Assembly: GCA_043228905.1 (NCBI GenBank)
Contig: JBHGNT010000010.1
Coordinates: 19,530,001 to 19,594,000, forward strand
Direction: 5' to 3'
Length of the DNA: 64,000 nucleotides
DNA from: Azolla caroliniana
Taxonomy: Eukaryota > Plantae > Polypodiophyta
A program made the translations under genes and the position numbers. The notes under the pieces were generated by a model. It was given only the letters and a program-made list of their open reading frames with translations, had not been told where the DNA came from and searched no databases. Positions 19,087 to 49,783 of the stretch are shown in pieces (positions within the stretch are counted from its first letter, which is position 1; every line of letters starts with the position of its first letter).

Positions 19087-19167
19087 GACAATTTGGTTGA
19101 GTGATTAAGGCATTTGACTTGAAATCAAATGCCTTTGCCCTCATAGGTTCAAATCTTGCAACAGTGC
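19087..19167 (+). pseudogene. tRNA-Ser pseudogene, decayed paralog of 1132-1212
   Basis: Colinear ungapped match to the tRNA-Ser with about 17 changes, mostly C>T/G>A; acceptor stem broken. Confidence 0.85.
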
Positions 19168-19177
19168 AATTACAAGA

Positions 19178-22100
19178 TGTTAGGTAACAGGTCCCTCCAG
19201 ATGGGAAGAAGAACACGAGTTGAAGAAAAGGGAGAACCGAATCGGTTGGCAACAACTCAATCGAAGCTGGAAAATCAAACCGATTGTTCAATTCGGTCCT
19301 GCCCCAAAATCGAATCCAAATCGATTCGACTAATAGCCGAATTGGTTGAAGCCAACTCGGGGCTATATCTATAAATAGAGTTAATATGCCCTTGTGGGCT
19401 ATATTTGTAAATAGCCCTGAATGTTGTATTAGTATAAATATATCTAGGGCAATCATTATGGTGTATGATCATTGTTGTATTGTTGTTGAAAAGTTAGAGT
19501 TGGCAGTTGCCTTTGTAACTAATTAAGGGTAAGAGAGTGAGAGCGAGCAACTTCTCCATAGCCGTATGCTTAGACGAAGAAGAACTCAAGGTTGGTGCCT
19601 TGCAAGTTCTTATTGTATTCCTCTTACTGATAGTGAGATAGTTCGAAGTCTATGGGCTCCCGTGGTTTTTCTCCATTTCAGGTTTTTCATGTAAACATCC
19701 TGTGTCTCTGTACTTCTATTGTTTGTGTACTATCATTCACGATCTTTGCACCCACATTCACATACGTATCAACCGGTTGTGGCCGGAGTCGATTCTCAAC
19801 AAATCGTTATTAGAGCAAGGTTAGTAAATGGAAGAATCATTTGGTGGAATGTTCAAGTTAACCGGCTCCAACTACTTGGAGTGGAAGTCGAAGATATGCT
19901 CGTGTGCAAGAATCTCTGGCTGTCGGTGCAATATGGGAAGACCAATCCTAACAAGATTGATGCGTCGACTTGGGAAGTCATGCATATGAAGGCAACAACG
20001 TACATAAGGTTTTTTATAGACATGAGTCTATACAACAACTTCAATGAAGAGAACAAGGCAGACACCCTTTGGGAGAAGATCGACATTATGCTTGAGAACA
20101 AAAATGCCGTCAACAGAGTCTGAGTTTTCAAGAAGATCGTGAGACTTTGGTATCAGGATGGCTCCAGCATGGCAGAGCACCTGAATGCCTTTAGGGACTC
20201 ATAAACCAAACCACCTCTTTGGAAGTACCTCTAGCCGATGAGGTATTAGCATTATTGCTGTTGGGATCCCTTCCGAATAGCTGGGAAATGCTCTTTGTCA
20301 TGTTGGGAAACGTCAGACTGGAAGGGAAGCACTTATCCCTAGAGAAGGTGAAGTCGAGCTTCCTGAATGAAGAAGCTCACCGAAAGGACAGAGAGGCAAT
20401 ATCCGACCCAAAGGCCTTAATCCCTGAAGGTGACACTAATCGGGGAAGACGACGAAATAGAAGTCCCCAGAACCGAGAGAAGTTGGGGAGAAGGTCGAAG
20501 TCAAGAGGAACGCCTACGTGCTTCTATTGTGAGACGCCGGGGCACTTCCAAAAGAATTTCCAACACTTTTGAAAGGACAAAGGGGGAGCCAACGGTGCGG
20601 ATCCGAAGAAGAATCCTGATCGAAAAGGCACTTCGACAATCGCAACAAGTGAGGAGGAGTTGTTGGTCATTAGTGAGCAAAGTGAGCTCAACCTTTTCCG
20701 CGATGAATCGACATGGGTGGTCGATTCAGGTGCATCGTTCCACCTGACCCCCAATAGAGGATGCTTCTCATCGTATAGAGCTGGAGACCATGATTTTGTA
20801 AAGATGGGAAATAAAGGAGCATGCAGAATCGTCGGGATAGGAGATGTGTGTTTGGAAACGTCTATCGGGTGCAGACTGGTATTGTCAGATGTTCGACACG
20901 TTCCGGAAGTCAGATTGAATTTGACATCAACCGATTGGCTGGATGATGAAGGCTACATGGGTAGCATCCGGAACAGAACTATGAAGTTATGTAAGGGAAG
21001 CCTGATTGTGGCCCGCGCCCGGAAAACCCTAAACTCAACGGGTTGGCTAAAAGGTTGAACCGGACCATCATGGAGAGGGCCAGAAGTATGTTAGCACATG
21101 CCAAGTTGTCCATGACGTTTTGGGCTTAGGCGCTGATGACGACAATGTATGTGATAAACAAATCACCTTCAACACCCTTGAATGAAGATATTCCACAAAG
21201 GGTGTGGACCAACAAGGATGTCTCATACCGACACCTGAGGGTGTTCGGTTGTCTTGCCTACATGCATGTTGCTAAGGACCAGAGGGGAATACTGGATCCG
21301 AAAACTCGGCAATGCATATTTCTCGGATATGGTGACAACGAATTCGGCTATTTGCTATGGGACTTAGCCGAGAAGAAAGTGATCCGGAGTTGAGACATTG
21401 TCTTTATGGAAGAAAAGACAATCATCGACTGGGAGAAGGAGAAGTCAAACATATCCTCCCAACCAGGCGGAAGTCAAAAGCCGGCTGAAGAGCATGGAGA
21501 GTCGATTGTAGTTAGACCAAGAGTCGGGTCGGTTGGAGGCCAGTTGGGAGTCGGACTCAGACTCGGACGCGGAGTCAGATCCGATGAGGAAGAAGAATTA
21601 GTCGACTCCAACCTAGACGAAGTACCAGCCAAAGGAGAAGAGGAAGATCCTAGCGAGCCGACTGAGGAAAATAGAGGAAGACGATACCCTTTGAGAGAAA
21701 GACATGCCCCTCGAAGAATTTTGGATACAGAATATGTGCTACTAACCGATGAGGGGGAGCTGGAAAGCTTTGAGGAAGCGAAGAGGGACACCCACAATAG
21801 AAAGTGGTTGAGTGCCATGCAGGATGAGATGGATCCTCTGTATGATAACCACACATATGAACTGATGGAGTTGCCGAAAGGAAAGAAGGCATTCCGAAAT
21901 AAGATACAAGTTGAAACCGGGAGATGGTAGGAGTCCACTCAAATACAAGGCTTGAATCGTGGTGAAAGGCTTTCAACAGAAGAAGGGTGTGAATTTCAAC
22001 GAAATATTTGCCTTGGTAGTGAAGATGACATCCATCCGAATGGTGTTGAGCAGAGAAGCCAACATGGATCTCGAAGTCGAACAATTGGATGTCAAGACGG

Positions 22101-23701
22101 TGTTTTTGCATGGTGATCTTGAGAAGGAGATATACATGCAGCAACCAGAAGGATTTGGCGAAAATGGAAAGGAGAATCTAGTGTGTCGGTTAAGGAGAAT
22201 CTAGTGTGTGGGTATGCACATTATCTGAGACCGGACAAAGAAGTTGTTATTGTTGTCACAGGAGAAATATGTGACAAAGGTGCTTCAGAGGTTCAACATG
22301 CAGAATGCGAAACCGGTCGATTCGACATTACCGACAAACAGTAAGCAGTTTGGAAGTCAATGTCCGAAGAAGAAAACAGAGAAGGCTGAGATGAGCAAGG
22401 TCCCATATGCCTTAGCTTTCAGAAGCCTTATGTTTGCAATGGTATGTACTAGGCCGGACATTGGATACGTTGTCGGAGTTGTCAGCCGGTATATGAGCAA
22501 TCCCGAAAGGGAGCTTTGGGCTACGGTAAAATGGATACTTCGGTACCTGAGAGGCACCTCAAGTGTGTGCCTCCGATTCAGCTCAGGTAACCCCATATTG
22601 GAAGGTTATACTGATTCAGACATGTCGGCTGATGTGGATACTAGCCGATCCACGTCCGGATACGTAATGACTTATGCAGGGGGAGTTGTCTAATGGCAAT
22701 CGAGGCTGTAGAAGGCCGTGGCATTTGCGATTGTGAACCATAGAAGCCGAGTACATGGTTGCTATAGAAGCCGACAAGGAAATAGTTTGGATGAAGGAGT
22801 TCATCGGAGAGTTGGGGATTCGGTAGGAGGAATTCCGATTCTACTGCGACAACCAAAGTGCAATCCACATTGTGAAGAATGCCGCCTACAATTGAGGACC
22901 AAGCATATCCAAAGGAGATACCATTGGCTCTGGGAGCAAGTAGAAGAGAAGGAGTTTACTCTAGTGAAGGTATGTACACACAACGGAGAACAGGTCGAAC
23001 ATGTTAACGAAGGTGCTGTCGGCTGGAAAGCTGGGTGCGTGTCGAAGACAGGTCGGACTGACGAAACACCCCGTGCCAGAGTGAAGGGGGAGTTTGTTAG
23101 GTAACAGGTCCCTTCGGATGGGAAGAGGAGCATGGGTCGAAGAAAAGGGAGAACCGAATCGATTGAAAGCAACTCAACCGAGGCCGAAAAATCAAACCGA
23201 TTGTTCGATTAAGTCGTGGTCGAAAATCAAATCCGAATCGATTCAGCTAATAGCCGAATTGGTTGAAGCTGACTCGGGGCTATATCTATAAATAGAGTTA
23301 ATGTGCCCTTGTGGGTTATATTTGTAAATAGCCTTGAATGTTGTATTAGTATGAATACATCTAGGGCAATCATTATGGTGTATGATCATTGTTGTATAGT
23401 TGTTGAAAACTTAGAGTTGGCAGTTGCCTCTGTAACTAAGTGAGGGTAAGAGAGTGAGAGTGAGTAACTTCTCCATAGCCGTTTGCTTAGACGAAGAAGA
23501 ACTCAAGGTCGGTGCCTTGCAAGTTCTTATTGTATTCCTCTTACTGATAGTGAGATAGTTCGAAGTCTGTGGGCTATCGTGGTTTTTCCCCATTTCGGGT
23601 TTTTCACATAAACATCCTGTGTCTCTGTACTATCATTCAAGATCTTTGCACCCACATTCGCATACGTGTCAACTGGTTGTGGCCGGGTTCGATTCTCAAC
23701 A
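19178..23701 (+). mobile_element. Ty1/copia element A, degenerate with internal deletions; LTRs 19178-19801 and 23095-23701
   Basis: TG...CA LTR pair, degenerate Met PBS (AATCGTTATTAGAGC), PPT GAGTGAAGGGGGAG, gag CFYC..GHF, PR WVVDSGASFH, RT QLDVKTVFLHG, RH GYTDSD; integrase core and part of RT deleted; flanks CAAGA/TAGAC do not match. Confidence 0.92.
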
Positions 23702-24688
23702 TAGACCTAGCGATGCTCAGGTGGATCGCGTACATTAAGTCCCCGAACCCGGAGATACGGCACATCTCCGGAAAGGATAACGTCATGGCCGATATGCTTT
23801 GAAGGGCGCGGCTCAACGATGAGGACGGCATGGTTTCGGATAACGAAGAAGTTGGCGAGGACTTCTTCGGGTCAGCTAACGTAGCAACAAGAAAGGGGAG
23901 CACTTCGGCGCTTAATGAATTCGACGAGAGCAAGTACGATGGGGAGTGGCTCTAGATCGGTGGGTTCCTAAAGATAATGACACTGGACGCGGCGTGGACG
24001 AAAGAAGAGACCAACCGGATTCGGAAGAAAACGTTGTCGTGAAGAAAACCGTCCCTTAGCGCAATCGGTGCATAACGCGCGTGAACCGGCTCTTCATGCA
24101 TGCGCGCCCTTTAATGTATATAATAGGGAATTAGGTACATAGGCATATCCGGGGGTAGTTAGATTCGGTAGGTAGGAAGTAAATGAGGGAGACGGCTCCC
24201 CTCTAAATCTATAAAAGAGAGGGAGACGCGGGGGAGAAGGAAATCGCGCATTGAGGAGGACGAAGTGCTGTCGAACCGTAACTAAACGCTTCTCCTCTGT
24301 TCATTCTCCATCGCTCTGCTCTGCAGGATTTCGGGAGGCTCGCGCTGCTTCGAGGAACGCCCGTGTGCTTCCGGCAGCACCTCCATCCTATCCCCTTTCG
24401 TGCGCAGACGAACAGGCATCGACATCTGTTCGCCGGCCTGGTCGGTTGTAACCGCTCACGTGCTCTGTTGTTTTGTGTCATTTGTTAATATACAAACATT
24501 CGTGTCTCTCTGTCTCTGTGTCCATTCGTGTTTTCTGCGTTGACGGGCCGTGTCCTTGTGTTTCTTTGCTCATACGTTACCGGTCGTCTCTCTCTTTCTC
24601 TTTCCCCTCCTATCACCTGCGCTTCGGTTCAAGACCCCGGTGGTCCTGCCTCGTTTCTCCACGCACGCGCATAGCAACACGACATATT

Positions 24689-24706
24689 TGGTGAATCCGA
24701 CGTGAA
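24689..24706 (+). promoter_or_regulatory. Primer binding site complementary to the tRNA-Trp 3' end
   Basis: TGGTGAATCCGACGTGAA is the reverse complement of TTCACGTCGG(A/G)TTCACCA, the plant tRNA-Trp(CCA) 3' end as I recall it. Confidence 0.8.
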
Positions 24707-26855
24707 ACAGGCGGCAGAGGAGCAGAAGATGAGGGGGTCGGATCTTGCAGAGGCCATGGCTTCGGCCGTAGACCGGATAGTGAGCGCGCGCGAGGGCACC
24801 GGCGCCCTTGACAGGGCTATTGAGGCGATCATCGGTATGATCGGCCGGTTCAGTGGAAAGGATGCCACGAGTTATTTGGCGTCCTACCGGGCGGAGATGT
24901 TGATGAGGGATATTCCGGAAGAGAGGCGTCTTGCCGGATTCCCTCGAGTGGCGATGCCGGGCATCCATGCGGAGGTGCTCGAGGTCCGGGCGGAGAGCCG
25001 GACCTGGGAGGAGTTCGAAGGACGGCTCCTGGAGAAATACGGGCTGGATGACGCGCTTCGACTTTCGAAGCGGGGCTTCATGGAGTGGGTGGAGTCCCCC
25101 GACAAAGGAAGAAATGCGTCGGCACTCCTCCGGGAGTTTGAGGATCGCTTTGTGCGCCTTTCGGCGCTCGATCAGACCGTTTTGGACACAAGTCGTGTCC
25201 TACTGTTTGTCAAATCGGTTGACGCATGGGATCGGGAGCAAGTGGGCTCCTTATTGGAAACCGAAGACGGGCTGACGGCCGACTGGGCCGCGGTAAAAAG
25301 AGTCTGCGGTCATTTTGACAAACGGTGGGAGTGGGCTGATACAGGGGCGACCGGGGCCGGTCCTGTCGCAGCAAGGAATCTCGAACTGATACCGCAGGTG
25401 CGACGAGAAGAGACCCGGGAATGGCTCGAAACCGGTTCGGCTTCGACCGGCGTGGTCAGAGGCTCGTCCGGGGGGACAGCTTTGGAGGAGTTGACACAGG
25501 CGGTAAAGGATCTCCAGATCGCCCAAGCTCGGAGGGAAGGTGGCGAACAGGCTCGTGACCGATGGCCTCCGGCAGGAAATAAGTGCATGTGGTGCGACGA
25601 GGTCGGCCACATCCGGAAAGACTGCGGGGACTTTGCGGAGGCTTTGAGAAGCCGGGTAGTGTACCTGTGGGAAGGTCGGGTGCACGCCAGCGATACCCGG
25701 AGGGCGCTGAACCGAAACGACGGGCGAGGAGGAATGAAAAGGCTGATGGAAGAGGCGGCGGCCCGGCACGTGGAGACCGTCCACTACTCAGCGTCAGCCG
25801 GTATTCGGGTCGGAGGCAACGAGGCCCAGAAGGAGAGCAAAGCCGGGTTCTGGCCGACGGTGCTGGAAGGCCTCGCCGGTGCCCGACGAAAGAAAGACGA
25901 GGCGGACCGCGCGGAGAAGCGGGTCCAGGGGGTAACCGGGTGGAGTGACCCGGTCGAAGAAAAGACGGGTTTCGTAGAAGTAGCTTGCCAGAACTACGAG
26001 GCTCTAGTTGAAGACAAACTGGTAGGTAAAACCGGAGGGGCCGGACCCTCACAAAGATACGAAACCCGATTCAGGCCGAAACGGAACGAGGCCGGTGAGT
26101 CCAGTGCCCGGGATAACCACAAGAAGGGCGGATACCGTTTGGGCAAGGAGATCGAAAGGACCACGGACCTACGAAAGGTCCTGGAAGAACAAATCCTCGA
26201 CAGCAAGGTGGAACTGTCGTTGCGGGAGGTGCTCGGAATCGCCAAGAAGGAGTTCCACAACTCCATCGTAGACTTGGTGAAGAGGAAGAGGCTGTCGACG
26301 GAGGAAGAACCGGAAAGGCCGGTGGAGGTGCGGACGACGCACATAGAGGACATGGCGCTGGAAGACGAGTGGGCAGAGAACCACTATTCGAGGCCACACT
26401 CGGCCCGAGCGACCACGGAAACCCCGGTGAAGATCGGAGATGTTCAGGAACCGGTGGTGGCGCTGGTGGACCACGGTTCGGAAATAAACCTGATGTCCAT
26501 GGACTTCTACAAGAAGGGGAATTGGCCGATCAACACCAAGCATGGGTGGAAGATACGGGCGGCGATGCGCACCACCGAGGAACTACACGGGGCCTGCCCA
26601 AACGTGCGAGTCAAGATCGACGACGTCGAGATAGACCAACACTTCTTTGTGCAGGAGACGTCCTCACACCCGGTCATACTGGGAGAACCGTACATTACGG
26701 CAGCGCGAATGGAGACCAAGGTGCTGGACAACGGGTCGGCTTATGCGAGGGTCAAGAGTCAGGACGGGCGTCACTCGGTCCAGTTCCTGACGGTGCGATC
26801 GAACCACGAGCAAAACCGCGACTCCCTCAGTGGCGAGAACCGAGAGGATTTTTAG
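24702..26855 (+). CDS. gag: Gypsy G1 Gag-protease ORF (first ATG at 24729)
   Basis: Zinc knuckle CMWCDEVGHIRKDC; aspartic protease ALVDHGSEIN ... VILGEPY. Confidence 0.88.
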   Translation: MKQAAEEQKMRGSDLAEAMASAVDRIVSAREGTGALDRAIEAIIGMIGRFSGKDATSYLASYRAEMLMRDIPEERRLAGFPRVAMPGIHAEVLEVRAESRTWEEFEGRLLEKYGLDDALRLSKRGFMEWVESPDKGRNASALLREFEDRFVRLSALDQTVLDTSRVLLFVKSVDAWDREQVGSLLETEDGLTADWAAVKRVCGHFDKRWEWADTGATGAGPVAARNLELIPQVRREETREWLETGSASTGVVRGSSGGTALEELTQAVKDLQIAQARREGGEQARDRWPPAGNKCMWCDEVGHIRKDCGDFAEALRSRVVYLWEGRVHASDTRRALNRNDGRGGMKRLMEEAAARHVETVHYSASAGIRVGGNEAQKESKAGFWPTVLEGLAGARRKKDEADRAEKRVQGVTGWSDPVEEKTGFVEVACQNYEALVEDKLVGKTGGAGPSQRYETRFRPKRNEAGESSARDNHKKGGYRLGKEIERTTDLRKVLEEQILDSKVELSLREVLGIAKKEFHNSIVDLVKRKRLSTEEEPERPVEVRTTHIEDMALEDEWAENHYSRPHSARATTETPVKIGDVQEPVVALVDHGSEINLMSMDFYKKGNWPINTKHGWKIRAAMRTTEELHGACPNVRVKIDDVEIDQHFFVQETSSHPVILGEPYITAARMETKVLDNGSAYARVKSQDGRHSVQFLTVRSNHEQNRDSLSGENREDF

Positions 26856-29800
26856 AGAGGGCTGTCAAGGCGTGGGGCCGCGACAGTCCGGACATTCCGG
26901 GAAAACTCCACAAATGTACGATAGAGGCGAAACCGAAGAAACCTTGTATCATAAATAGGAAGTTTTGTTTCTCCGACAACGGAGGTTGTACGATAGTCGG
27001 CGTCGTAGGCCGAGAAAAGACAAGGGCGGAAGAGCGACTTCGGGCGTGCGGAGTTCTCGGGCCCAGCGAGGAAATCAACGGAGCCGTGGAGGCGGTCTCC
27101 TTTGACGATACCTTGGGAATACTGCGAGAGGTGGTCGGAGAGGGCCTTAAAGAGGACCGGACGATACCGGTTTGTTCAGAAGAGATGTATGAAGTCATCG
27201 CGGACTTCAGTCGAGGGCTCGAGTCGGATCGGACGGCCCGGGTTAACACGAAGTACAAGACTGCGGACCGGAAGGTAAGGCCAGTCGCGGCACCCTTACT
27301 GGAGGGCAGCGAGTTGCGGATCAAGGGGGTCGCGTCGGACCTCAGTTTACGAGATCTGGCCTACATAGGACACACCTTCACCGACAGAACGCTCCGGGAG
27401 CTCAAAATCGGTGGGGGCGGGTTCCTACTGCCGGCGGAAGAAGATCGGTTTCGGAGAATGCTCGGAAGGCACGGGAAAGCCTTCGCATTCTCACCGGGAG
27501 AGATCGGGTGCGTAGACCTGACAGTCGTGAAGCCGATGGTGATATTCACGGTACCGCATGTGCCGTGGAATCTCAAACCAATTCCGGTACTGAGAGCTCA
27601 CATCCCGGAGCTGATGGAGCTGTTGAGGAAGAAAGTCGATATGGGCATCCTCGAACCGTCGAGTGCCCCGTACTCGAACCGGTGGTTTACCGTACCGAAG
27701 AAGAACGGGACGTTGCGCTTCATTCAAGACCTGCAACCGGTCAACAGAGTGACCATTCGGAACGCAGGAATCGGACCAACGATAGACGAGTTCGCGGAGG
27801 CCTTCGCTGGAAGGTCGATCTACTCGGTCGATGATCTGTACGCAGGGTACGATCAGTTCCAACTAGCCGTAGAGAGCAAAGACATTACGACGATGCGGAC
27901 TCCTCTCGGCCTAGTACGGATGTGTACCCTGCCACAAGGAGGGACGAACTCGGTGGCCCACATGGTGAATGCGATGAACAACGTGCTGAGGGATTGTATC
28001 CCGGACATCACCATGCTATTCCTGGATGACATCCCGATCAAGGGATGTCTGGTGGAGAAAAAGGACGAAACGATCGGACCGGACGGATGCTGGAGATTCG
28101 TGGCGTCACACATTGACAACTGCGAGAGGGTGCTGCAGAGGCTAGAGGACGTGAGGCTCACCTTCTCCGGGGAGAAATCGGCCTTCGGGCAATCAGAGAT
28201 CATGGTCGTCGGACATCTATGCGGACCGTATGGCCGGAAACCGTCTCCGGCTAAGGTGGAAGCCATCTCCGCAATGAAGCCCGACTGTAACTCGGTCACG
28301 GAGGTACGGAGGTTCTTGGGAGCATGCGCGTTCTACCACATATGGATCCCGCATTACGCCCACGTTGCCGAGCCGCTATACGGGTTGCTGAAAAAGGGGC
28401 GAAAATTCGAGTGGCGAGTCGAGCATACGGAGTCGGTCCGAAAGATGAAGGAGGCTCTTGCTACAGCTCCGACGCTCCGGAAGGCTGTCTACGAGAAAGG
28501 CACCCCCATCTACATAACGGTAGATACAAGTCCGACCGGGATCGGATGGGTCGTCAACCAAGAAGATGAGGACGGTATTCGGTTCCCAATCCGGTTCGGC
28601 GTGAAGGTCCTCGGTGAGCGACAGCGAGGATACGCCCAGGTTAAACGCGAACTCTGGGGTATCGTTTCGGCGGTAAAGGCCGATAAAGACTATCTGATCG
28701 GGACAGAGGTGATTATCGAGACGGACTGCCTGCCGATTCTCGGCATGGTTTCCGGATGCGCAACCCCGGACCTGGCAATGCTCAGGTGGATAGCGTACAT
28801 CAAGTCCTTGGATCTGGAAATGCGACACATGCTTTCGAGGGCGCGATTCGACGACGAGGGCGGCATGGTTTCGGAGGACGAGGAAGTCGGCGTGGACTTC
28901 TTCGAGGCGGCTTACGTAACAACCGAGGGGGGGAGCACTCCGACGCTTAACGATTTTGACGAGAGCAAGTATGATGGGGAGTGGCTGCAGATTGGAGGAT
29001 TCTTAAGGACGATGACGCCGGACGCGTCATGGACAAAGGACGAGGCCAACCGGATCTGGAAGAAAGCGTACCGATTCTTTCTGCGGGACAGATACTTGTG
29101 GAAGCACCCGAAGAAGAGAAACGGCATCCCGCTCCGAGTAGTGGCGATGAAGGAGGAACAAGAGGAGTTGCTGAAGGCCTACCACGACAGCCCCTGGGCT
29201 GGACACCGTGGGACGTGGGCCACGTTCGAGAAACTAAAGGGGAAGTACTGGTGGCCGGGGCTGTACCGGGACGTGCATCAGTTCGTGACAAATTGTGAGA
29301 GCTGTCAGATGCACTCCATAGTCTGACATCGGGACGAGCTTCACCCTACTTACCCTCCGGCCATCCATTTCAAATGGATGGTAGATTTGGTGACGATGCC
29401 GATGGGCGTAGGGCAGATGCGATATCTGGTGCTGGCCCGGGAGGACCTGACGAACCAGGTGGAAAGCCGAGCCCTGCAGAACAAAACGACCGCGGCCGTG
29501 TGTCGGTTCCTGATCGAGGACGTGATATGCTGGTACGGGTGCGTCGGGAAGATCGTGGGTGACCGTGGGGAGTTGGACGTCGAAGAGGCCGAGGAGTTGT
29601 TTGACCGGTTAGGGGTCAAGCTCACGCTCACCACAACGTACAATCCGGAGGCGAACGGGAAGGTGGAGCGCGGACACGGACCGATCGTCAAAGCGCTAGT
29701 CCGGGCGTGCAAAGGCCAGGTCGGGAACTGGCCACGACTGTTACCCTATGCCTTGTGGGCGGACCGGACAACGCACAGTTCGGTAACCGGTTTCCTGCCG

Positions 29801-30313
29801 TCAGAGCTCATGTTCGGACAGAAGCCGATCATGCCGATGGAACGGACGATCTCCTCTTGGGCGACAGTAGACTGGAGAGACGAGATGGGTCGGGAAGAAC
29901 TGCTAGCGGCGCGTATACGACAGCTCGAGCGGAGGCCAGAGGACGTGGACCGAGCGGCGGAGAGACTTCGGACGGCGAGGATGAAGAACAAAGCCCGGTT
30001 CAACCGAACGCACCGGCTCCGACCAAAGAAAATCGAGGAAGGCGACTGGGTGCTAGTCTACGACAGCAGCCTCGACAACCAGCACCGAGCAACACGGAAG
30101 TTTGCGAAGCGGTGGTTCGGGCCTTACGTGGTAACGAGCGCCAAAGACAACGGGACGTATCACTTGGCGGAACTCGACGGTACGAGGATGGCGATACCGG
30201 TAGCAGGGAAGCGGACGAAAGCGTTCAAGAAGCGCCATGACTGCGAACTGGATCTAAGAGGCCTGGACAACGTTGACGAACAGTCCGAAGCGGAGGACGA
30301 ACCGATGGACTAA
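26846..30313 (+). CDS. pol: Gypsy G1 Pol (RT-RNaseH-integrase) in the -1 frame; one internal stop at 29324-29326
   Basis: LPQGGTNS, FLDD, RH VDTSPTGIG/ELWG/TDC, INT H-x6-H...CESC, D-D-E core, GPY. Confidence 0.88.
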
Positions 30314-32365
30314 GAATCGGAACCCGGACCGGTTTTCTCCAACTAGAACCCAATTTTGGCGCATACCGGTGGATGCGCGGTTAGGTGGGGGCGGATGTTG
30401 TGAAGAAAACCGTCCCTTAGCGCAATCGGTGCATAACGCACGTGAACCGGCTCTTCACGCGTGCGCGCCCTTTAATGTATATAATAGGGAATTAGGTACA
30501 TAGGCATATCCGGGGTAGTTAGATTCGGTAGGTAGGAAGTAAATGAGGGAGATGGCTCCCCTCTGAAGCTATAAAAGAGAGGGAGACGCGGGGGAGAAGG
30601 AAATTGCGCATTGAGGAGGACGAAGTGCTGTTGAATCGTAACCGAACGCTTCTCCTCTGTTCATTCTCCATCGCTCTTCTCTGCAGGATTTCGGGAGGCT
30701 CGCGCTGCTTCGAGGAACGCCCGTGTGCTTCCGGCAGCACCTCCATCCTATCCCCTTTCGTGCGCAGACGAACAGGCATCGACATCTGTTCGCCGGCCTG
30801 GTCGGTTGTAACCGCTCGCGTGCTCTGTTGTTTTGTGTCATTTGTTAATATACAAACATTCGTGTCTCTCTGTCTCTGTGTCCATTCGTGTTTTCTGCGT
30901 TGACGGGCCGTGTCCTTGTGTTTCTTTGCTCATACGTTACCGGTCGTCTCTCTCTTTCTCTTTCCCCTCCTATCACCTGCTCTTCGGTTCAAGACCTCGG
31001 TGGTCCTGCCTCGTTTCTCCACACACGCGCGTAGCAACGCGACAACGTATTGATTCTTCCTACGGGACGGGAGCATATGGAAGCACCCGAAGAAGAGAAA
31101 CGACATCCCGCTCCGAGTGGTGGCGAAGAAAGAGGAACAGGAAGAATTGTTGACGGCATACCACGAGAGTCCCTGGGCCGGACACCGCGGGACGTGGGCC
31201 ACATTCGAGAAGCTAAAGGGGAAGTACTGGTGGCTGGGACTATACTGGGACGAGCATCGGTTTGTGACGACTTGCGAAAACTGTCAGGTGCACTCCATAG
31301 TTCGACATCGGGACGAGCTTCACCCGACCTACCCTCCGATCGTCCACTTCAAGTGGATGGTGGATCTGGTGATGATGCCGATGGGGGTAGGCAGATGCGG
31401 TATCTGGTGCTAGCTCGGGAGGACCTGACGAACCGGGTGGAAGGTCGAGCGTTGCAGAACAAAACGACCGCGGCCGTGTGCCAATTTCTGATCGAAGAAG
31501 TGGTATGCGAGTACGGGTGCGTAGGTAAGATCGTGGCCAACCGCGGAGAATTGGACGCGCAAGAGGCGGAAGAACTGTTTGACCGGCTAGGGATTACACT
31601 CTCACTCACCACAACGTACAATCCGGAGGCTAACGGGAAGGTGGAACGCGGACACGGGCCGATCGTCAAAGCGTTAGTACGGGCATGTGGGGGCCAAGTC
31701 AGGAACTGGCCGCGGCTCTTACCCTATGCGTTGTGGGCGGATCGAACTACGCATAGTTCGGTAACCGGGTTCATGCCGGCAGAGCTAATGTACGGGCAGA
31801 AGCCGATCATGCCAATGGAGCAAACAATCGTCTCATAGGCCACGGTGGACTGGAAAGATGAGATGAGCCAGGAGGAGCTGTTAGCGGCACAGATTCGGCA
31901 GCTAGAGCGAAGACCGGAGGACGTGGACTGTCAGGAATAGTACTAAAGCAAAGATGGAATTAGTACTAAGAAGAGTGGTACTATTAGTACTAAGAGGACG
32001 GGACTGCGTAAGATTCCCGAGAGAGAGGAAGTGAGAAGAGGAGAGAGAGAGAAATAGGATGATGACAACAGCTCTTATATTATATGAAAGATAAGTACAA
32101 ATCGGCTAAGAGGCTTAAGACTGGTGTTGAACCAATTTGGTTCAAAACAATGCCTTGTGCCTTCTTTTATAGTGTTTTTAGGAATAATCCTGAAGCTTCT
32201 AGAATGTTCCAGAGAGATCTGGAATATACATCAATTTTCTATGATAAAGCATAAATGAAAATAATATCCTACAAAATACAATTCATAGTCTAATGGTAAG
32301 AGCTCGACCCATGTAGCATAACGTCATGGGTTCGAGTCTTGCCATATCATGACACTATCTCCCCC

Positions 32366-34590
32366 TTAAAGACGACGAGTGGAACGAGTCGGCGCTAATT
32401 GCGGACCGGGTTTGTCCGGATACTTTCGGTGGAAATTAGCAAGAATATCTTGTGCATTGGCAACATGCTCGACGGGTTCCCAAGTACGTTCGCTCAGACT
32501 ATAACCGAGCCAATCGACCAAGTAATAAAGTTTGTTGCGAACAAGTTTGGAATCGAGGATGGCAGCAACTTCATACTCCGGGCCGACGTCCAACTCCAGC
32601 GGGGGCGGCGGTGGTGTCACATGATCGGGAATGGTGTTTGCTTTATAAGTTTTAAGAAGAGAACAATGGAAAACCGGATGTATCTAAAGCTGCGGAGGGA
32701 GATCAAGGTGGAAGGTGACATCATTAATCTTCCCCGTAATACGGAAAGGACCGAGTCGTCGATAATCCAACTTGTCGCATGGTCGAGTAGTCTTGATGTG
32801 ACGACGTAAGAGCCATACTCGATCTCCGATGGCAAAAGAGGAGGGAATCCGATGACGATCCGCATAAGTCTTCTGTGTGTGTTGAGCATGACGAAGGTGA
32901 GTAGAGAGATCCATCTGGATCTTGCGTAGCCTCTCCAAATGATCCTCGGCACGAGGGTTGGTAGGTAGCTCCGGAGTGTCGATCACCGACCAGCGAGGAT
33001 GGAAACCGGTATAAGCGAAAAATGGGGAGACCCGAGTCGAGGAGTGAATAGCATTATTATACACAAACTCCTCAAAGTGGAGAATCTCAGCCCAATCGTC
33101 CTGTTGATAACTTAGGAAACACCGGAGATATTGCTCCAGCGTTTGGTTTGTTCGTTCCGCCTGTCCGTTGGTCTGAGGATGGTAGCCGGAGGAGAGGTTG
33201 CAGGAGACCTTGAGCATCTTGAAGAGATGCTGCCAAAATTTGGAGACAAATTGCGGGCCTCGGTCACTGATAATACTGTCTAGGAGGCCATGATGCCGAA
33301 ATACCTCACGCATAACAAGAGCGGCGGTTTCCTCGCTAGTGATGGCTTTAGTACATGGCACAAAATGTGCCATCTTCGTATATCGATCGACGACGGTTAG
33401 GATTGCATCGAACCCCTTCGAGACCGGCAGATCTGTGATAAAATCAAGACAAATAGACTGCCATGGCTTACTTGGAATCGGTAAAGGTTCCAACAAGCCA
33501 TATGGATGGTGTCGTGGCATCTTTGCTCGGCAGCAAGCATCACAGGTCCGAACGTAGTCGTCGACAAAACGGCGCATGTGGGGCCACCAAAAAGATCATT
33601 GCACTAGCTCCAACGTCTTAGTATTACTGAAATGTCCCGCCGTATGGGTGTCGTGACAATGTTGGACGATTTGAAGGCGACAGGAGCAATCGGGGACATA
33701 TACGCGCTTTTTAAAGAATAACAAACCATCATGATATTCGAATTGTCAGTAGTCAATACCTGGTTGTTGAGACTGAGAACAGGATGCCCGAGAAGTATCA
33801 ATGTGCGCCAGGATGTCTTGAGCAAAACTATCCGTCTTCAAGGTTGCACGTTGTCGTGAAGAATGTGCTTCACGATATAAAAATGAGCTTAAATGTTGTA
33901 TTTAATAATATTTGAGAGACTTGAACCCACATCCTTATATACGATGTACAATGTACATACCACTAGGCTAGGCTATTTATTTGTAAAAGTGTGTAATAAA
34001 TGTGCTTCATGATATAAGAATGAAGCTATATATTGTATTAAGTAAAATTGAGGGACTTGAACCCTCAACCTTGTATATCAAGCACAAACCATACACCACT
34101 AAGCTAGGTTATTTGTTTTAGGGTTATATCCATCATTATACTTATCCCAATACATGGGAGCTCAAATGAGCATGATGGCTATCATGCATCACATGCAATG
34201 CATGTGCGCCAAATGGCGATCATGCATCAGATGTAACTCATGCATTACATGCATGACATTACCATATGCATGGAAATACTTATAAAAAGAGAGGAAAGGA
34301 AAACAAAAGGGAATCAAGGAATCAAGAGAGAGTAAAAAAATAATACAATCAATTGAAGAAGACTAGCTCATTGGGTGGAGAACCTCTCATTTCGAAGTTG
34401 AGGTCGAGGGTTCAAATCAAGGGTCGGTATTGAAAAGATTCATCTTGCGATCAAGGATTGTAAAGTTGGTAAAATATTATATTTTTAATATACATCATGT
34501 TTATATCATATACTCTTGTTTCTAGAATCATATTTTGTCTAAATCTTCTTTCTTGAATCATACATTGTCTCTATCTTTTATCTATGCTCG

Positions 34591-34682
<92 letters not shown>

Positions 34683-36888
34683 TACTTGTAACTCTTCGCC
34701 GTACTACCCTTAACCATTCTATCATCACCATACAAGCCTTATTAAAAGTTAAGTTTCTTCAACTCCCCTTAACCTTAGTCCCCGCGACTTCGCCGCACGA
34801 ACCACAACTACCCCGACAACGTATGTCATCGGTAATCCGTGAATCCATCGGGGTGTGAAAAATCCGCGTCGTGTGCAATCGTGTTGGTCCCAAGATTACT
34901 TGCTTTTGATTATCAAATGTTGCGTCACCAGGACGAGGTGCAAGATATGAATGCCGTGATAGTGCATCTGCTTTTCCTTGCTGCTTCCCCGGTCGATATG
35001 TGATTTTGAAGTCGAAACGCGTGAGGAATTGCGCCCACCGAGCTTGCCGTCGATTTAGTACGCGAGCGTTCTGAAAATAAGCAAGATTTTTATGATCGCT
35101 AAAGACAATGACCTGATGTGGAGAGCCCTCTAAGAAATGCCGCCATTGTACAAATGAATCCACGATGGCTAATAACTCCTTGTCATGTATTTCGTAGTTG
35201 ATTTCTACGACATCGAATTTGCGCGAATGGAAAGCCACCGGATGCAACTCTTCTTTATCGCCTTGTTGAGAAAGGATGCTACCGAGGGCGAAATCTTATG
35301 CGTCGGCCTCCATGATGAATGGTTTTCTTGTATCCACATGAGCTAGAATCGGTGCTGATGTAAAGGCTTTCTTAAGATGCCGAAAAGGCATATTTGCTTC
35401 TATGGACCAAAGAAATACTTGGCCCTTCTTCGTAAGTTGTGTGAGAGGTAAAATAATCTTCGAGTAATCCTGTATAAACTTACGGTAGAAGTTAGCAAAA
35501 CCTAGAAAACATTGTACATCTCGTACCGACCGTGGAATTTGCCACTCTAGTATAGTTTAGATTTTAGCTGGATCCATGGCGATGCCCTTTGAGGAGATGA
35601 CGTAGCCTAGAAATTCCACTTGCTTGCAGTCAAAGCTACATTTTTCTAGCTTGGCATAAAGACCATTCTCGCGGAGTCGCTTTAGTACTAATAGTACATG
35701 AGAATCGTGCTCTTCCTGGGCCTTCGAATAAATCAACAGATCATCCAGATAAATGATCAAACAGATATCCAAGAGGTCTCTGAATATATCATTTGCCATG
35801 TGTTGGAAGACTGCGGGTGCATTGGTTAGGCTAAACGGCATAACAGTATACTCGAAATGCCCATACCGCGTGCGAAAGGCGGTCTTCCACTCATCTCCCG
35901 ATCGGATCCGCACGAGATTATACACTCCTCGTAGGTGGATTTTCGTAAAAAACTTGGCACCATTAACTCTCTCTAAAAGACTTGATATAAGAGGAAGTGC
36001 ATACCTATTCCGGATGGTGACTTGACAAAGACGAAGTGAGCCATCTTTCTTCTTGAGAAAGAAGATGGGTGCACCGGCCGGAGATTTCGAATGGCGGATG
36101 AACCCGCTTGCCAAGTTCTCCTCTATGTAGGCTCGAAGGACTTCTAACTCGGTGGGTGACAAGTTGTAAATTGGTCCCCATGGTGGCTCGGTTCCTGGTT
36201 GTAAATCGATGGGACAGTCATAGGGACGGTGATGAGGAAGGGTATTGGCTTTTACCTTGTCAAATACATCGGCATAAGGATGATATTTTGCTGGAATTTG
36301 TACTGAGGAGTCCTTCTTAATAGTGCTGGAAGGATGTACTGATATTGCAAATAGGAACATTGCCTCCTTGGGTCCTTCTTCGCGTAGTTGATGGAGTGAA
36401 ATGGTCGAAACTTGGTGAGTTGATTCTTGGGGTGGTCGATATCGGACTTCTCTTCTTCTCCAATCTATGGCTAGATTATGTAATTCAAACCAAGGTAATC
36501 CTAGGACAATGGGATGCTCTGGACTACTAATTATATTAAATGATATTACACACACAAAACTACCTAGGACAACTTGAATGGGTTCTGATTCTTCTACAAT
36601 ATTCCCGGAAGCAATGGGACGACCATCAATGACTACTACAGATGAGGGACAAGGATGTTTTCTTAAGGATATCTGAGAAGCTTGGGCAAAATTTCGATCC
36701 ATGAAACAGGAATTAGCTCCGGAATCTAAAAGTGCTAGGACGGGTACTGGGGGAGTACTTTTAGTACTAACAATGACTTGGGCTAGGAACACATTGCTAA
36801 CTTGCTTGGAAGGAATGGAACCACTAATGGGCTGTACAGATCTAGGGCTGCTATCCAACCAAACGACTCCTATTTTGGCTGGACTCAA
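32366..36888 (-). pseudogene. pol: Chromovirus pol (PR-RT-RH-INT-chromodomain), disrupted by stops and a solo LTR
   Basis: ORFs 35557-36888 (PR, RT), 34759-35247 (RH), 32684-33577 (INT), 32366-32620 (YEVAAILDSK..YYLVDWLGY..RTWEP chromodomain). Confidence 0.88.
33852..34818 (+). mobile_element. Solo LTR of a G1-related Gypsy; 4-bp TSD ACGT
   Basis: TGTCGTGAAGA...CCCCGACA termini, ACGT at 33848 and 34819, TATAAAA near 34280, (CT)n(CA)n tract 34590-34681. Confidence 0.85.
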
Positions 36889-38043
36889 TCGTTTAACTCT
36901 TCATCTAATTGACTAAGGATTTCAAATTTATTTGAGATACTTGGGCTATTAGTACTATGAATACTATCAAACACTCTATTAGTACTATTAATACTATCAG
37001 ACACTCCTAAGGGAAGAATTGACTCAGGTTTAGTACAGGCTACAATTTGATTTACCTGTCTTCTTGGCCTATGGGGACAATTGATTGTGATATGCCCTGA
37101 TCCACCGCAATAAAGACATAATTGATTTGCACGTCGTTGTTGCTTTTCTTCTTCCGATAACGGGCCGCGTCGACGCATGATATCGATCTCCATCGGTGTC
37201 GAAGTATTTGCTTGAGGAATGTCTCGTGCAAATGGTCTAGCCGCGACTGCGGCGTAAGTGGGCTCCGGCCTAGCGCTTGGTATCTATAATTGACGTTCCG
37301 AACGCCGTTCGAAGAGGCGGTTGTTACATCGGACCGCTCGACTGATTGCCTCCGTAAGAGACTTTGGTTCTTTGGGGAAGGTTAGAAGTAGATCTTTGAC
37401 ATCATTTCGCAGGCCATAGCGAAACTGCTCCATTAGTGCTTGATCATCCCAGGGTATGTCGGAAGCGAGTAGGCGGAAATCCGCCGCATAGGCAGAGGCT
37501 GGACGATCGCCTTGACGCAATCGCCGGATCTTGTTGATCGCCGTCCTGATGCTGTCGGTGTCTCCAAAGCAGGCTTTGAACTCACTAATAAAATCTTCAA
37601 AGTTATTAAGCAAGGGCGATTGTTTTTCTAGAAGCGGAGCGAACCATGTTAAGGCTGAGCCGCTAAGCAACGTGCCTATTAAGCCGACTCGGGATGCATC
37701 AATGGGGTATCGGGAAGGATGCATTTGGAGGACTAATCGTACCTAATTAAGGAATCCCCTGAATTGCGATCGCGTTCCATCAAATTTCACAGGAAGTCCA
37801 ATCTTCGGCTCTTTATGAAATCCTTGGGGACTTGATCCTTGTTGTTGCAATGCCACTTCGAGTTGTTGCACCCGTAATGCTAACTCCCCATGTTGTTGTT
37901 GCGTTTGTTGCTTTTCTAGAGCGATTTGTTGAAGATCACCTATCAGCCGTTGTTTTTCTTGTTCTAGGGCAACAAACTTTTCTTTTAGGCACTGTAACTC
38001 GGAGAAAACAGATTGATATTCTTGGGCGCTAACAGTAGCCATA
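36885..38043 (-). pseudogene. gag: Chromovirus gag, interrupted by stops
   Basis: KFDGTRSQFRGF, retrotransposon-gag LRQGDRPASAYAADF, PMEID, CLYCGGSGH. Confidence 0.82.
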
Positions 38044-39613
38044 GTAGGGGGAAAAGGATAGGAGGATGAGGGAGAACGACAAGTAGGCTGGAAGAAAATT
38101 TGGTTCAAACTGTCAGGAATAGTACTAAAGCAGAGATGGAATTAGTACTAAGAAGAGTAGTACTATTAGTACTAAGAGGACGGGACTGCGTAAGATTCCC
38201 GAGAGAGAGGAAGTGAGAAGAGGAGAGAGAGAGAAATAGGATGATGACAGCAGCTCTTATATTATATGAAAGATAAGTACAAATCGGCTAAGAGGCTTAA
38301 GACTGGTGTTGAACCAATTTGGTTCAAAACAATGCCTTGTGCCTCCTTTTATAGTGTTTTTAGGAATAATCCTGAAGCTTCTAGAATGTTCCAAAGAGAT
38401 CTGGAATATACATCAATTTTCTATGATAAAGCATAAATGAAAATAATATCCTACAAAATACAATTCATAGTCTAATGGTAAGAGCTCGACCCATGTAGCA
38501 TAAGGTCATGGGTTCGAGTTTTGCCATATCATGACATGGACCGAGCCGCGAAGAAGCTACGGGTGGCGAGGGTAGAGAACAAAGGACGATTCGACCGGAC
38601 TCACCGACTGAGATCGAAGAAGATCGAGGAAAGCGATTGGGTTCTAGTGTATGACAGCAGCCTCAACAACCAGCACAAGGCAACGCGGAAGTTTGCAAGA
38701 AGGTGGTTCGGGCCTTATGCGGTGACAAGCGCCAACGACAATGGAACCGATAGCGGGGATGGCGGTACCGATAGCGGGGAAAAGACAAACCATTCAAAAA
38801 GTGGCACGAGGCTGAACCGGACCCGGACGACCTCGATAGCGACAACGATCGGCTCGAAATGGATGTCGATCCGGAAGACGAAGGATAAGAGTGGGCCGGT
38901 CTTCTCCGTCAAGAGTCTAATTTTGGCGCATACCGGTGGATGTGTGGTTAGGTGGGGGTGGATGTTGTGGGGAAAACCGTCCCTAGGCGGAAACCGGGTA
39001 TAACGTGTGTAAACCAGCCCTTACACGTGGGCACAAGTTTTGTTGTATAGTATGTATATAGGTACAAGTCGGTTGAGGTGAAATCCTAGGTAGCACGCAT
39101 TCATTAGGGAGAAAATCGGGGTGTATCCCTGTCTGAAAGGACAGGGAATTAACATGATGTAACGGGTGGTAACGACCTCCCTCCTTGGGGTATAAAAGAG
39201 AGGGAGAGGTATTGTAAAACATATCGCGTTTTGTGGAGGACGAAGTGTTGCCGGCCTGGAACCGAGCTCTTCTCCTCTGTCTTCTCCATAGTCGTTCTAT
39301 GCAAGTTTTCGGGAGGTTGACTCTGCTCCGCGGAACGCCCGAGTGCTTCCGGCAGAATCTCCATCTCGCGTTCTGTGTGTATGTGTGCAGGTGTCGGAGC
39401 CTATCACTCGCCGGCTTGCCGGTTGTAACTCCTTGATTTATATATATATATACATTCGTTCTGTCTCCTTTGTTCAACTCCTGTGATTCTGTGTGTCTAT
39501 GCACGTGTGAAGTACATCAGTAGTTTCCTTCCCCTCTCCTCATTCGGTTATTATCGGTCCAAGGCCCCCGTGGTCCTGCCTCGTTCTCCGTGCACGCACG
39601 TAACAATGCAACA

Positions 39614-48845: not shown

Positions 48846-49783
48846 ACGGGTTGTCACCCCCGGTGGTGTGTATTTGAAACCCCAGGGTTACCCACAAATC
48901 CTTGCGCAGAGGATCGTTTGGAGCGGTTACGCAAGTTACAAGCGGATTTATCTACTCATCTACAGCAAGCTCAACAAACACACAAGGTTTACGCAGATCG
49001 TCAACGGCTTCCATCTAGTTTTAACATTTGAGATCTACGACACATCAAGACTAGTCGACCATGCAAGAAGTTGGATTATCGGCGATTAGGTCCTTTCCGT
49101 ATGATCGGAAAAATTAATGATGTCGCTTTTCGTCTCGATCTACCTCCACAACCTCGGATACATCTGGTGTTTCATAGTTCTCTCCTCGAACCCTATCAAG
49201 TCAGCACCATCCCAAGCCGTATTAAACAACCTCCACCCCCGATCGAACTTGAAGATGGACCTTAGTACGAGGTTGTTGCCATCCTCGATTCCAAGATTTT
49301 TCGCAACAAGCTTTACTATTTAGTCGATTGGCTAGGATATAGTCCCAGCGAGTGTACTTGGGAACCAATAGAGAATGTGACCAATGCTTGTGCTCTTCTT
49401 GAAGACTTCCATCATCAATATCCAGACAAACCGGGTCCTCAATCCAAAACGACTCGTGACACTCGTCGTTTTAAAAGGGGGATAGTGTCATGATATGACA
49501 AGACTCGAACCCATAACCTTATGTTACATGGTTCAAGCTTTTAACCATTTGACTATATGTTGTAATACGAAAGATATTATTTTCATTTTAAGTTTTACTA
49601 TGAAAAATTGATGTATATTTCCAGATTTCTCTGGAACATTCTAGAAACTTTAGGAGTACTCCTGAGAACACTATAAAAGGAGGCACAAGGCATTATTTCG
49701 AACCAAATCAGTTCAACGACAGTCTTAAGCCTCCTAGCTACGATTGTATATTCTCTTACCATAATATATATCTTTTGTTATCA

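What the first reader, a model, noticed from the sequence alone, without database searches (positions are those of the whole stretch)
33852..34420. Solo LTR carrying three tRNA-type Pol III (A-box/B-box) modules
Seen: two tandem units of about 137 bp at the U3 start each hold, on the minus strand, an A box (TAGCCTAGTGG 33970-33960; TAGCTTAGTGG 34106-34096) and a B box (GGGTTCAAGTC 33928-33918; 34064-34054), 42 nt apart. A third module is on the plus strand downstream of the TATA (TAGCTCATTGG 34364, GGGTTCAAATC 34408). The sequence between the boxes differs heavily between units while the boxes and spacing are kept. Known: A/B boxes at this spacing bind TFIIIC; tDNAs act as heterochromatin barriers in yeasts; Cassandra TRIMs carry 5S-type Pol III promoters in their LTRs. 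Inference: this LTR may bracket its Pol II promoter with TFIIIC sites as a built-in insulator against silencing, or drive outward Pol III transcripts. I do not recall tRNA-type modules described in plant Gypsy LTRs.
Basis: partly seen in the sequence, partly recalled or inferred. Interest (0 to 1): 0.8.

Follow-up and report, generated by a model that had tools for sequence, protein, structure and literature searches.

The report
Outward tRNA promoters in retrotransposon LTRs
Two unrelated families of plant jumping genes carry worn tRNA-gene promoter boxes at the outer edge of their terminal repeats, pointing away from the element, and in the family that could be tested the boxes vary less than the DNA around them, so they likely bind the tRNA transcription machinery and would thereby help keep the element's own promoter from being silenced.

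Summary
The three A/B modules are real and far beyond chance. They sit in a 967-bp solo LTR (33852-34818) with a 4-bp ACGT target duplication, confirmed by empty-site contigs. The family is abundant under four organism labels, and the U3 unit occurs once, twice or three times. The two U3 modules are one duplicated module. Common variants hit 1 of 44 box positions against 14 of 62 spacer positions (p=0.0035; p=0.23 under the strictest filter). The Tcn1-like chromovirus that the LTR interrupts, an unrelated lineage, carries a different module at the same place and orientation in both LTRs, as does a third LTR. Sister Phygy-like LTRs carry none. So the shared feature is an outward module at the U3 edge, not a bracket. 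tRNA-like LTR segments are known (Helenus TRIMs, one in a plant), so this is a new variant: antisense, beside a Pol II promoter, and in a gag-pol element. TFIIIC binding, transcription and insulation are untested. The scan noted similar modules in fungal LTRs, not on this DNA.

The parts
33852..34818 (+). Solo LTR, 967 bp, TG...CA with 5-bp inverted ends; likely from a Phygy-like Ty3/gypsy family
   Evidence: first 12 nt and TATA context shared with the LTR at 24035, whose strand is fixed by its PBS and ORFs
33848..33851 (.). Left copy of the 4-bp target-site duplication ACGT (NCGN type)
   Evidence: empty-site contigs in X5 (15) and X9 (16) leave here and go on with the host sequence that follows the right copy (table 7)
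34819..34822 (.). Right copy of the target-site duplication
33852..33989 (+). U3 unit 1, starting at the LTR terminus
33990..34125 (+). U3 unit 2, a duplicate that begins with a worn copy of the LTR terminus, 20 nt upstream of the unit-1 A box
   Evidence: joints 34119 to 33852 and 33856
33918..33970 (-). Module 1, outward: A box 33970-33960, B box 33928-33918; anticodon-type stem 5 of 5 pairs, T stem 4 of 5
33879..33883 (-). T5 run, first possible Pol III terminator for module 1
34054..34106 (-). Module 2, outward: A box 34106-34096, B box 34064-34054; anticodon-type stem 5 of 5, T stem 5 of 5; Rfam tRNA 21.2 bits (cut-off 29)
34044..34047 (-). T4 run just behind the T stem of module 2
34150..34270 (+). 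Palindrome-rich U3 segment, presumed enhancer; many contigs join it to a different upstream sequence
   Evidence: loose ends before 34150 in X5 (27), X9 (32), X13 (17)
34281..34287 (+). TATA box of the presumed Pol II promoter
34364..34418 (+). Module 3, sense, in R/U5; boxes kept, T stem lost (1 of 5); T5 run at 34482-34486
   Evidence: bins 34360-34419 covered in 4 of 4 runs
34591..34681 (+). CT/CA microsatellite in U5
31929..38536 (-). Host element: Tcn1-like chromovirus, LTRs 426 bp (419 of 426 identical), 5-bp TSD, gag-PR-RT-RH-IN-chromodomain with several stops; the solo LTR sits between its RNase H and integrase ORFs
32286..32338 (+). Outward A/B module in the host 3' LTR; B box ends 16 nt from the LTR terminus
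38468..38520 (+). Same module in the host 5' LTR, with one change at the last B-box position
49502..49555 (-). Homologous outward module in a diverged Tcn1-like 3' LTR starting at 49486

Best explanation
The modules are tRNA-derived type-2 Pol III promoter boxes built into the LTRs of two Ty3/gypsy lineages; they likely bind TFIIIC at the outer U3 edge and would thereby hold chromatin open next to the LTR's Pol II promoter, which would favour the copies that keep them. Shown: solo LTR with target duplication, abundant family, variable unit number, tRNA geometry, fewer common variants in the boxes, and the same place and orientation in an unrelated chromovirus. Inferred: capture from tRNA genes or SINE heads on at least two occasions, selection acting through the elements' own replication, and TFIIIC binding. 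Least supported: that the benefit is a barrier rather than a short RNA. I put 'boxes are functional Pol III-type sites' at about 0.6 and the barrier reading within it at about 0.4 overall.
For: (1) Variants at 15% or more in any of 4 runs: 1 of 44 box, 14 of 62 spacer, 15 of 105 other positions; Fisher p=0.0035 against spacer and 0.007 against all others. Sliding the box mask gives so few variants in 7 of 211 shifts, 5 of them within 3 nt of the true place. The boxes are richer in G+C (23 of 44) than the spacers (20 of 62), and G/C sites varied at 1 of 23 in boxes against 6 of 20 in spacers and 8 of 26 elsewhere. (2) The only indel at that level lies outside the modules. (3) The one box variant is at position 52, where the recalled B-box consensus allows either purine. 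(4) The Tcn1-like LTRs (chromodomain E 2.5e-13; RT 27% identical to the Phygy-like RT) carry a module at the same edge and strand, with an unrelated spacer (p 0.075-0.76 for the cross-type pairs). (5) The cloverleaf is not shared (anticodon stem at most 2 of 5 in Tcn1-like modules, T stem 1 of 5 in module 3), and a terminator is absent from the host LTRs (first T4 364 and 453 nt away). What all modules share is the DNA boxes and their spacing, which fits a DNA-binding role better than a conserved RNA product. (6) Outward modules cannot make the element's genomic RNA. (7) Precedent: TFIIIB/TFIIIC barriers in yeast (PMC9540200, passage) and B2 SINE boundaries in mouse (PMC8136502, passages).
Against: No occupancy, RNA or methylation data. 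Eight of the 14 varying spacer positions vary only towards the other unit's letter; without them the contrast is 6 of 62 against 1 of 44, p=0.23. Contig depths are collapsed and short contigs from other repeats may pile on the boxes. Between the two Tcn1-like LTR types the boxes are 21 of 22 identical against 201 of 256 elsewhere, p=0.09. Phygy-like LTRs at 24035, 30396, 48148 and 61147 show no module, nor do the 245 bases of LTR in L002 by eye, so neither lineage is shown to need one. The three Tcn1-like LTRs are one family, so the convergence rests on two lineages in one 64-kb window. The passages read give no plant example of a tDNA or TFIIIC barrier. The insert's lineage is inferred from its ends, not from its own pol.
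Confidence: 0.4

Rival explanations
1. Passenger relics: SINE heads or tRNA pseudogenes landed in ancestral LTRs and are carried along without function; the apparent box conservation comes from small numbers and contig mapping.
For: p=0.23 under the strict filter; p=0.09 in the Tcn1-like pair; sister LTRs lack modules; one host LTR twin has a changed B box; a lone B box at 5718 shares 20 of 20 nt with unit 1, so such pieces may be common in this genome. An earlier unchecked note read a reversed tRNA relic in a fungal LTR this way (e1-9852194).
Against: Both boxes and their spacing persist in three module types whose spacers are no longer alike; no tail or own target duplication; all 6 non-tRNA modules with at most one mismatch in total lie in Ty3 LTRs; G/C-rich boxes should decay faster, not slower.
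Confidence: 0.27
2. The modules are Pol III genes whose short RNAs (about 70-130 nt in the insert family) do the work, as decoys, small-RNA precursors or tRNA mimics, like the Pol III cassettes in foamy-virus LTRs.
For: T4/T5 runs 59, 87 and 118 nt from the A boxes and CAA triplets upstream of all six modules (CAA and poly(T) are plant Pol III signals, PMC13578239 passage). Both units keep a 5-bp anticodon-type stem; variants fall on 6 of 14 loop and 3 of 20 stem positions, p=0.12. Changes at T-stem partners 52 and 62 have matching shares in three runs (0.10/0.10, 0.33/0.32, 0.44/0.45; X5 0.04/0.08).
Against: Fold and terminator are not shared with the Tcn1-like modules or module 3. The 52/62 match is not phased and may only mark a subfamily. 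CAA and T runs are common in AT-rich DNA, and the real tRNA-Ser gene of the window has no CAA in its 45 upstream bases.
Confidence: 0.2
3. Landing pad: the modules attract Pol III-targeting integrases, as tRNA genes attract Ty3 and Tj1, and the unit duplication is a self-insertion at the module's start site followed by recombination.
For: Unit 2 begins with a worn LTR terminus 20 nt upstream of the unit-1 A box, about 13 nt before the nominal mature 5' end; Tj1 inserts 5-11 bp upstream of that end (PMC4600332, passages). Many contigs diverge at 33982 and 34119-34120. Earlier unchecked notes propose this for fungal LTRs (e1-10420520, e1-10420559).
Against: One junction only, copied in register; its four upstream bases are not NCGN; neither the insert nor the element at 24035 sits beside a Pol III unit; a reverse-transcription slip would also start at the U3 end.
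Confidence: 0.07

Closest known systems
Helenus / TRIMp3 (Kojima 2024, PMC10886601; parts 1-4 of 6 of the text, figure legends and searched passages read; supplements not read)
   Same: [quoted passage not shown]
   Different: Helenus are short non-coding TRIMs (311-1263 bp) thought to use the module as their own promoter; only TRIMs under 1000 bp were analysed, and the paper expects autonomous partners to rely on Pol II. Here one LTR alone is 967 bp, keeps a TATA box, has up to three or more modules, the U3 ones face outward, and the host element codes for Gag-Pol. Orientation in Helenus is not stated in the text read and may be visible in its supplements.
Cassandra TRIMs (PMC10853983, passages)
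   Same: Pol III internal promoter in a plant LTR; boxes conserved, bases between them variable.
   Different: 5S type (A, IE, C boxes), mid-LTR, replaces the Pol II promoter, non-autonomous.
Foamy-virus LTR Pol III microRNA cassettes (PMC3993851, passages)
   Same: Several A/B-box Pol III units with T-run terminators inside the LTR of an autonomous retroelement that also has a Pol II promoter.
   Different: Those are proven transcripts forming miRNA hairpins in animal viruses; here the units are tRNA-shaped and no RNA is shown.
tDNA/TFIIIC barriers in yeast and B2 SINE boundaries in mouse (PMC9540200, PMC8136502, passages)
   Same: B-box elements at the edge of a regulated domain; a mobile element carrying the boundary.
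   Different: Shown in host loci of yeasts and mammals, partly through CTCF; not described in the passages read as a device of an LTR element or in plants.
Phygy and Tcn1 Ty3/gypsy clades (Neumann et al. 2019, PMC6317226, passages and supplement file 3 row; Jedlicka et al. 2019, PMC6911290, passages)
   Same: Phygy: 4-bp NCGN TSD. Tcn1: chromodomain and self-priming. Phygy nested in Tcn1 was the commonest repeated pair in Physcomitrella.
   Different: No Pol III modules are mentioned in the passages read; the clade names here rest on structure, not on a tree with REXdb references.

Membership tests
Helenus / TRIMp3 | tRNA-like LTR segment with kept A and B boxes | tested here: met
   motifs as in PMC10886601 section 3.5
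Helenus / TRIMp3 | Short element with two LTRs around a small non-coding interior with PBS and PPT | tested here: not met
   The insert is one 967-bp LTR without terminal direct repeats; the host element encodes Gag-Pol. The interior of the insert's parent was not seen.
Helenus / TRIMp3 | Module placed to make the element's own RNA | tested here: not met
   U3 modules are antisense; module 3 is sense but has T5 at 34482-34486, inside the LTR
tRNA-derived SINE insertion | Own target duplication and 3' tail | tested here: not met
   Flank words no longer than shuffles in 4 of 5 modules tested; the 11-mer at unit 1 is the tandem repeat itself; longest A or T run 3-5
tRNA-derived SINE insertion | Free copies outside LTRs | tested here: inconclusive
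   None in 64 kb except a lone B box at 5718; no genome held
Functional tRNA gene | Full cloverleaf with acceptor stem | tested here: not met
   Not called by ARAGORN; best Rfam score 21.2 bits over model positions 8-63, cut-off 29; acceptor stem absent by inspection
Phygy (Ty3/gypsy non-chromovirus) | 4-bp NCGN target duplication | tested here: met
   ACGT for the insert and for the element at 24035-31044; definition
Phygy (Ty3/gypsy non-chromovirus) | tRNA-Trp PBS | tested here: inconclusive
   A solo LTR has no PBS; the sister element has a tRNA-type PBS at 24689, read as Trp from recall only
Phygy (Ty3/gypsy non-chromovirus) | RT/RH/INT group with Phygy references | not tested
   No REXdb references at hand; named relatives of the sister element's RT-RH are from Riccia sorocarpa and Adiantum nelumboides
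Tcn1 chromovirus (host element) | Chromodomain after integrase | tested here: met
   PF00385 E 2.5e-13
Tcn1 chromovirus (host element) | Self-priming PBS instead of a tRNA site | tested here: met
   The bases behind the 5' LTR repeat a palindrome about 25-40 nt after the TATA box and can pair with the predicted RNA 5' end (read); feature
Tcn1 chromovirus (host element) | RT/INT group with Tcn1 references | not tested
   No reference tree built
TFIIIC/tDNA barrier | TFIIIC occupancy and blocking of silencing spread | not testable with these tools
   Needs ChIP or CUT&Tag, methylation profiles and a reporter
LTR Pol III small-RNA cassette (foamy-virus type) | A/B boxes plus T-run terminator giving a defined hairpin transcript | tested here: inconclusive
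   Terminators present for the three insert modules, absent within the host LTRs; folds -12.6 to -28.8 kcal/mol without shuffle control; no transcript data

The most novel reading that the evidence does not exclude
Protein-coding Ty3/gypsy retrotransposons of a non-seed plant have, in two unrelated lineages, captured tRNA promoters at the outer U3 edge and use TFIIIC there as a portable anti-silencing barrier; one family multiplies the module by tandem duplication. Every solo LTR would then be a mobile Pol III-type insulator, giving hundreds of natural test sites for TFIIIC barriers in plants.
Probability: 0.3. Interest if true: 0.8.

Novelty: new variant of a known kind. Interest (0 to 1): 0.52.

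Why it matters
If the boxes bind TFIIIC, this would be a cis-acting way for LTR elements to resist silencing, and it would make the open question of tDNA/TFIIIC barriers in plants testable on many natural copies with 0, 1, 2 or 3 modules. It would extend Pol III-type LTR modules from miniature non-coding elements to gag-pol elements, in a role other than making the element's RNA. Even if inert, such modules may inflate tRNA gene counts in repeat-rich plant genomes, as Helenus does in rust fungi (PMC10886601, Table 2).

Tried and rejected
No whole genome is held, so per-copy alignments were not possible. No RNA holder was listed for the stretch; this says nothing about expression. The one metagenome scan gave a single chance match inside a bacterial contig (L001). 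Two scans of viral contigs found no relative of either pol. The prokaryote genome scan gave one contig with a related integrase, whose 245 bases of LTR show no module by eye (L002). Look-ups of earlier findings by place and by sequence were blank for this DNA. Rfam miRNA hits over the LTR are far below their cut-offs and were dropped. The first, ungapped unit comparison (18 of 55 downstream of the B box) was spoiled by an indel and replaced by the gapped one. The variant table was cut (178 rows hidden; 0 of 24 shown positions in 33852-34430 lie in a box) and was not used for statistics. Rejected: the insert as a whole TRIM (no two LTRs); the LTR lying on the minus strand (5' end, TATA and CT-rich U5 match the oriented element at 24035); the modules as true tRNA genes; the Tcn1-like module as a primer (that element looks self-primed). 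Ten paper searches listed no paper describing outward A/B modules in plant gag-pol LTRs; most listed papers were seen as listing and abstract start only, and the library lacks most subscription papers and Repbase reports.

Full report
What is there. The finding lies in a 967-bp insert, 33852-34818, with TG...CA ends and a 4-bp duplication ACGT on both sides. It has no terminal direct repeats, so it is a single LTR and not a miniature element. It interrupts the pol gene of a minus-strand Ty3/gypsy element, 31929-38536, between RNase H and integrase. Contigs of four public DNA runs under four organism labels were laid on 33700-34585 (1260, 1671, 1092 and 1009 records). In two runs, 15 and 16 contigs leave the window at 33851 and go on with the host sequence that follows the right-hand ACGT, which is the empty site. 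All element bins are covered in three runs and all but one in the fourth. Joints show copies with one unit (skips from 33936-33982 to 34150-34158) and with a further unit (34119 back to 33852 or 33856). The modules are therefore a property of an abundant LTR family.

Lineage. The insert shares its first 12 bases and its TATA context with the LTR of the element at 24035-31044, which has the same ACGT duplication, a tRNA-type PBS, a DUF4100 Gag and no chromodomain. Neumann et al. give 4-bp NCGN duplications as the mark of Phygy (PMC6317226, passages and one supplement row). Named relatives of that element's RT-RH come from a liverwort and a fern (240 hits, 120 listed, most unnamed), so the plant is likely a non-seed plant. 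The host element has a chromodomain, a 5-bp duplication and a PBS that can pair with its own predicted RNA start, as in Tcn1. The two RTs are 27% identical. Phygy nested in Tcn1 is a known arrangement in Physcomitrella (PMC6911290, passage). No tree with reference elements was built, and the insert's own pol was not seen.

The observation. Six A+B pairs occur in the window against 0.06 expected; in 2000 shuffles of the element one had a single pair. The two U3 modules are one module duplicated: boxes 21 of 22 identical, spacer 19 of 31. The duplicate starts with a worn LTR terminus. The modules have tRNA geometry (T8 to G53 = 44-46 nt). Both units keep a 5-bp anticodon-type stem and a T stem, module 3 has lost its T stem, and none is a tRNA gene. 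None has its own duplication or tail.

Both LTRs of the Tcn1-like host (32286 and 38468) and a diverged relative (49555) carry one module at the U3 start, also facing outward, with the B box 16 nt from the terminus. Its spacer is not significantly like those of the insert's modules (p 0.075-0.76), which points to separate captures or long divergence. The looser scan gave 13 hits against 2.6 in shuffles; the six with at most one mismatch in total, leaving aside one hit in the tRNA gene and one in a pol region, are these LTR modules. Four Phygy-like LTRs in the window show none. So the recurring feature is an outward module at the U3 edge; a bracket around the promoter is seen only in the insert family.

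Are the boxes under selection? On 33895-34125 the variant table was complete at a 15% threshold: 31 rows, 30 positions. They fall on 1 of 44 box, 14 of 62 spacer and 15 of 105 other positions (p=0.0035 and 0.007). A sliding-mask control gives 7 of 211, five of them within 3 nt of the true place; G/C sites vary at 1 of 23 in boxes, 6 of 20 in spacers, 8 of 26 elsewhere. The only indel is outside the modules. Variants this common mark lineages of master copies, so constraint would act through the elements' own spread (inference). Against this: 8 of the 14 spacer positions vary only towards the other unit's letter, and without them p=0.23; depths come from collapsed contigs; and the Tcn1-like pair gives 21 of 22 against 201 of 256, p=0.09. 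The A-box position at which the units differ does not appear as a variant in either unit, which argues that cross-mapping is modest. I read the evidence as moderate support for constraint on the boxes.

How it most likely works. Outward modules cannot make the genomic RNA, and both LTR types keep a TATA box. What all modules share is the boxes and their spacing, not a fold or a terminator: T runs follow the insert's modules at 59, 87 and 118 nt but are absent from the host LTRs. I therefore favour TFIIIC binding at the U3 edge that holds chromatin open beside the Pol II promoter (0.4). The precedents are TFIIIB/TFIIIC barriers in yeast (PMC9540200, passage) and mobile B2 SINE boundaries (PMC8136502, passages). 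Rivals are inert passengers (0.27), short Pol III RNAs as in foamy-virus LTRs (0.2; PMC3993851, passages; hints here are the kept stems and matching shares of changes at T-stem partners 52 and 62), and a landing pad for Pol III-targeting integrases (0.07; PMC4600332, passages). Binding, transcription and insulation are all untested.

Comparison with what is known. Kojima 2024 described Helenus, TRIMs with tRNA-like LTR segments and kept boxes, with one family in Selaginella, and noted that 'not a few' Repbase LTRs hold part of a tRNA while analysing only TRIMs under 1000 bp. Cassandra carries a 5S promoter with the same pattern of kept boxes and variable gaps. The insert and the host fail two defining features of Helenus, so they are not filed there. 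Ten searches of the held library listed no paper on outward A/B modules in plant gag-pol LTRs; passages of PMC2864245, PMC10946416 and PMC7466625 read for this did not mention them. Repbase reports, subscription papers and the Helenus supplements were not seen and may hold such cases. Earlier notes of this scan report tRNA-type boxes in fungal LTRs, read once as landing pads and once as a passenger; none covers this DNA.

Verdict. Observation confirmed and extended to a second lineage; interpretation partly supported. New variant of a known kind, interest 0.52. The boldest reading, convergent portable TFIIIC barriers in plant gag-pol LTRs, has probability about 0.3 and would merit 0.8.

Noticed in passing
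window 19087-19167 and 19178-23701: A tRNA-Ser pseudogene (83% to the intact tRNA-Ser gene at 1132-1212) lies 10 bp before a copia element.
   Followed up: no
window 5709-5728: A lone B box in AT-rich DNA shares 20 of 20 nt with the variable loop and B box of unit 1, without an A box or a similar spacer.
   Followed up: partly
window 32338-32354, 38520-38536, 49486-49502: In the Tcn1-like LTRs the B box ends 16 nt from the LTR terminus, close to the 15 nt between C61 and the CCA end of a tRNA (recalled numbering); the LTR end may derive from a reversed tRNA 3' end, though no acceptor stem is left.
   Followed up: partly
window 33984-33999: The unit duplication starts at a worn copy of the exact LTR terminus; natural variants in other copies lie closer to the terminus sequence.
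   Followed up: partly
window 34150: Many contigs join the palindrome-rich U3 segment to other upstream sequences, so LTR subfamilies seem to swap the module-bearing part.
   Followed up: no
window 24035-31044: Phygy-like element with the same ACGT target duplication, nested in an older copy of its own kind; GC-rich LTRs without modules. Notes on this genome report tRNA ends in place of the PPT in other Ty3 lineages; the bases before this 3' LTR are purine-rich by eye.
   Followed up: partly
window 23686-23695: B-box-like decamer at the end of a copia 3' LTR, changed in its 5' twin, no A box.
   Followed up: no
window 5946-6443: Part of a GDSL lipase gene on the minus strand in the AT-rich left part of the window.
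   Followed up: no
PMC13578239, section 6: The review reports more than 7500 predicted tRNA genes in the fern Azolla filiculoides; LTR-borne modules of this kind could inflate such counts. The organism of this window is not known to be that species.
   Followed up: no
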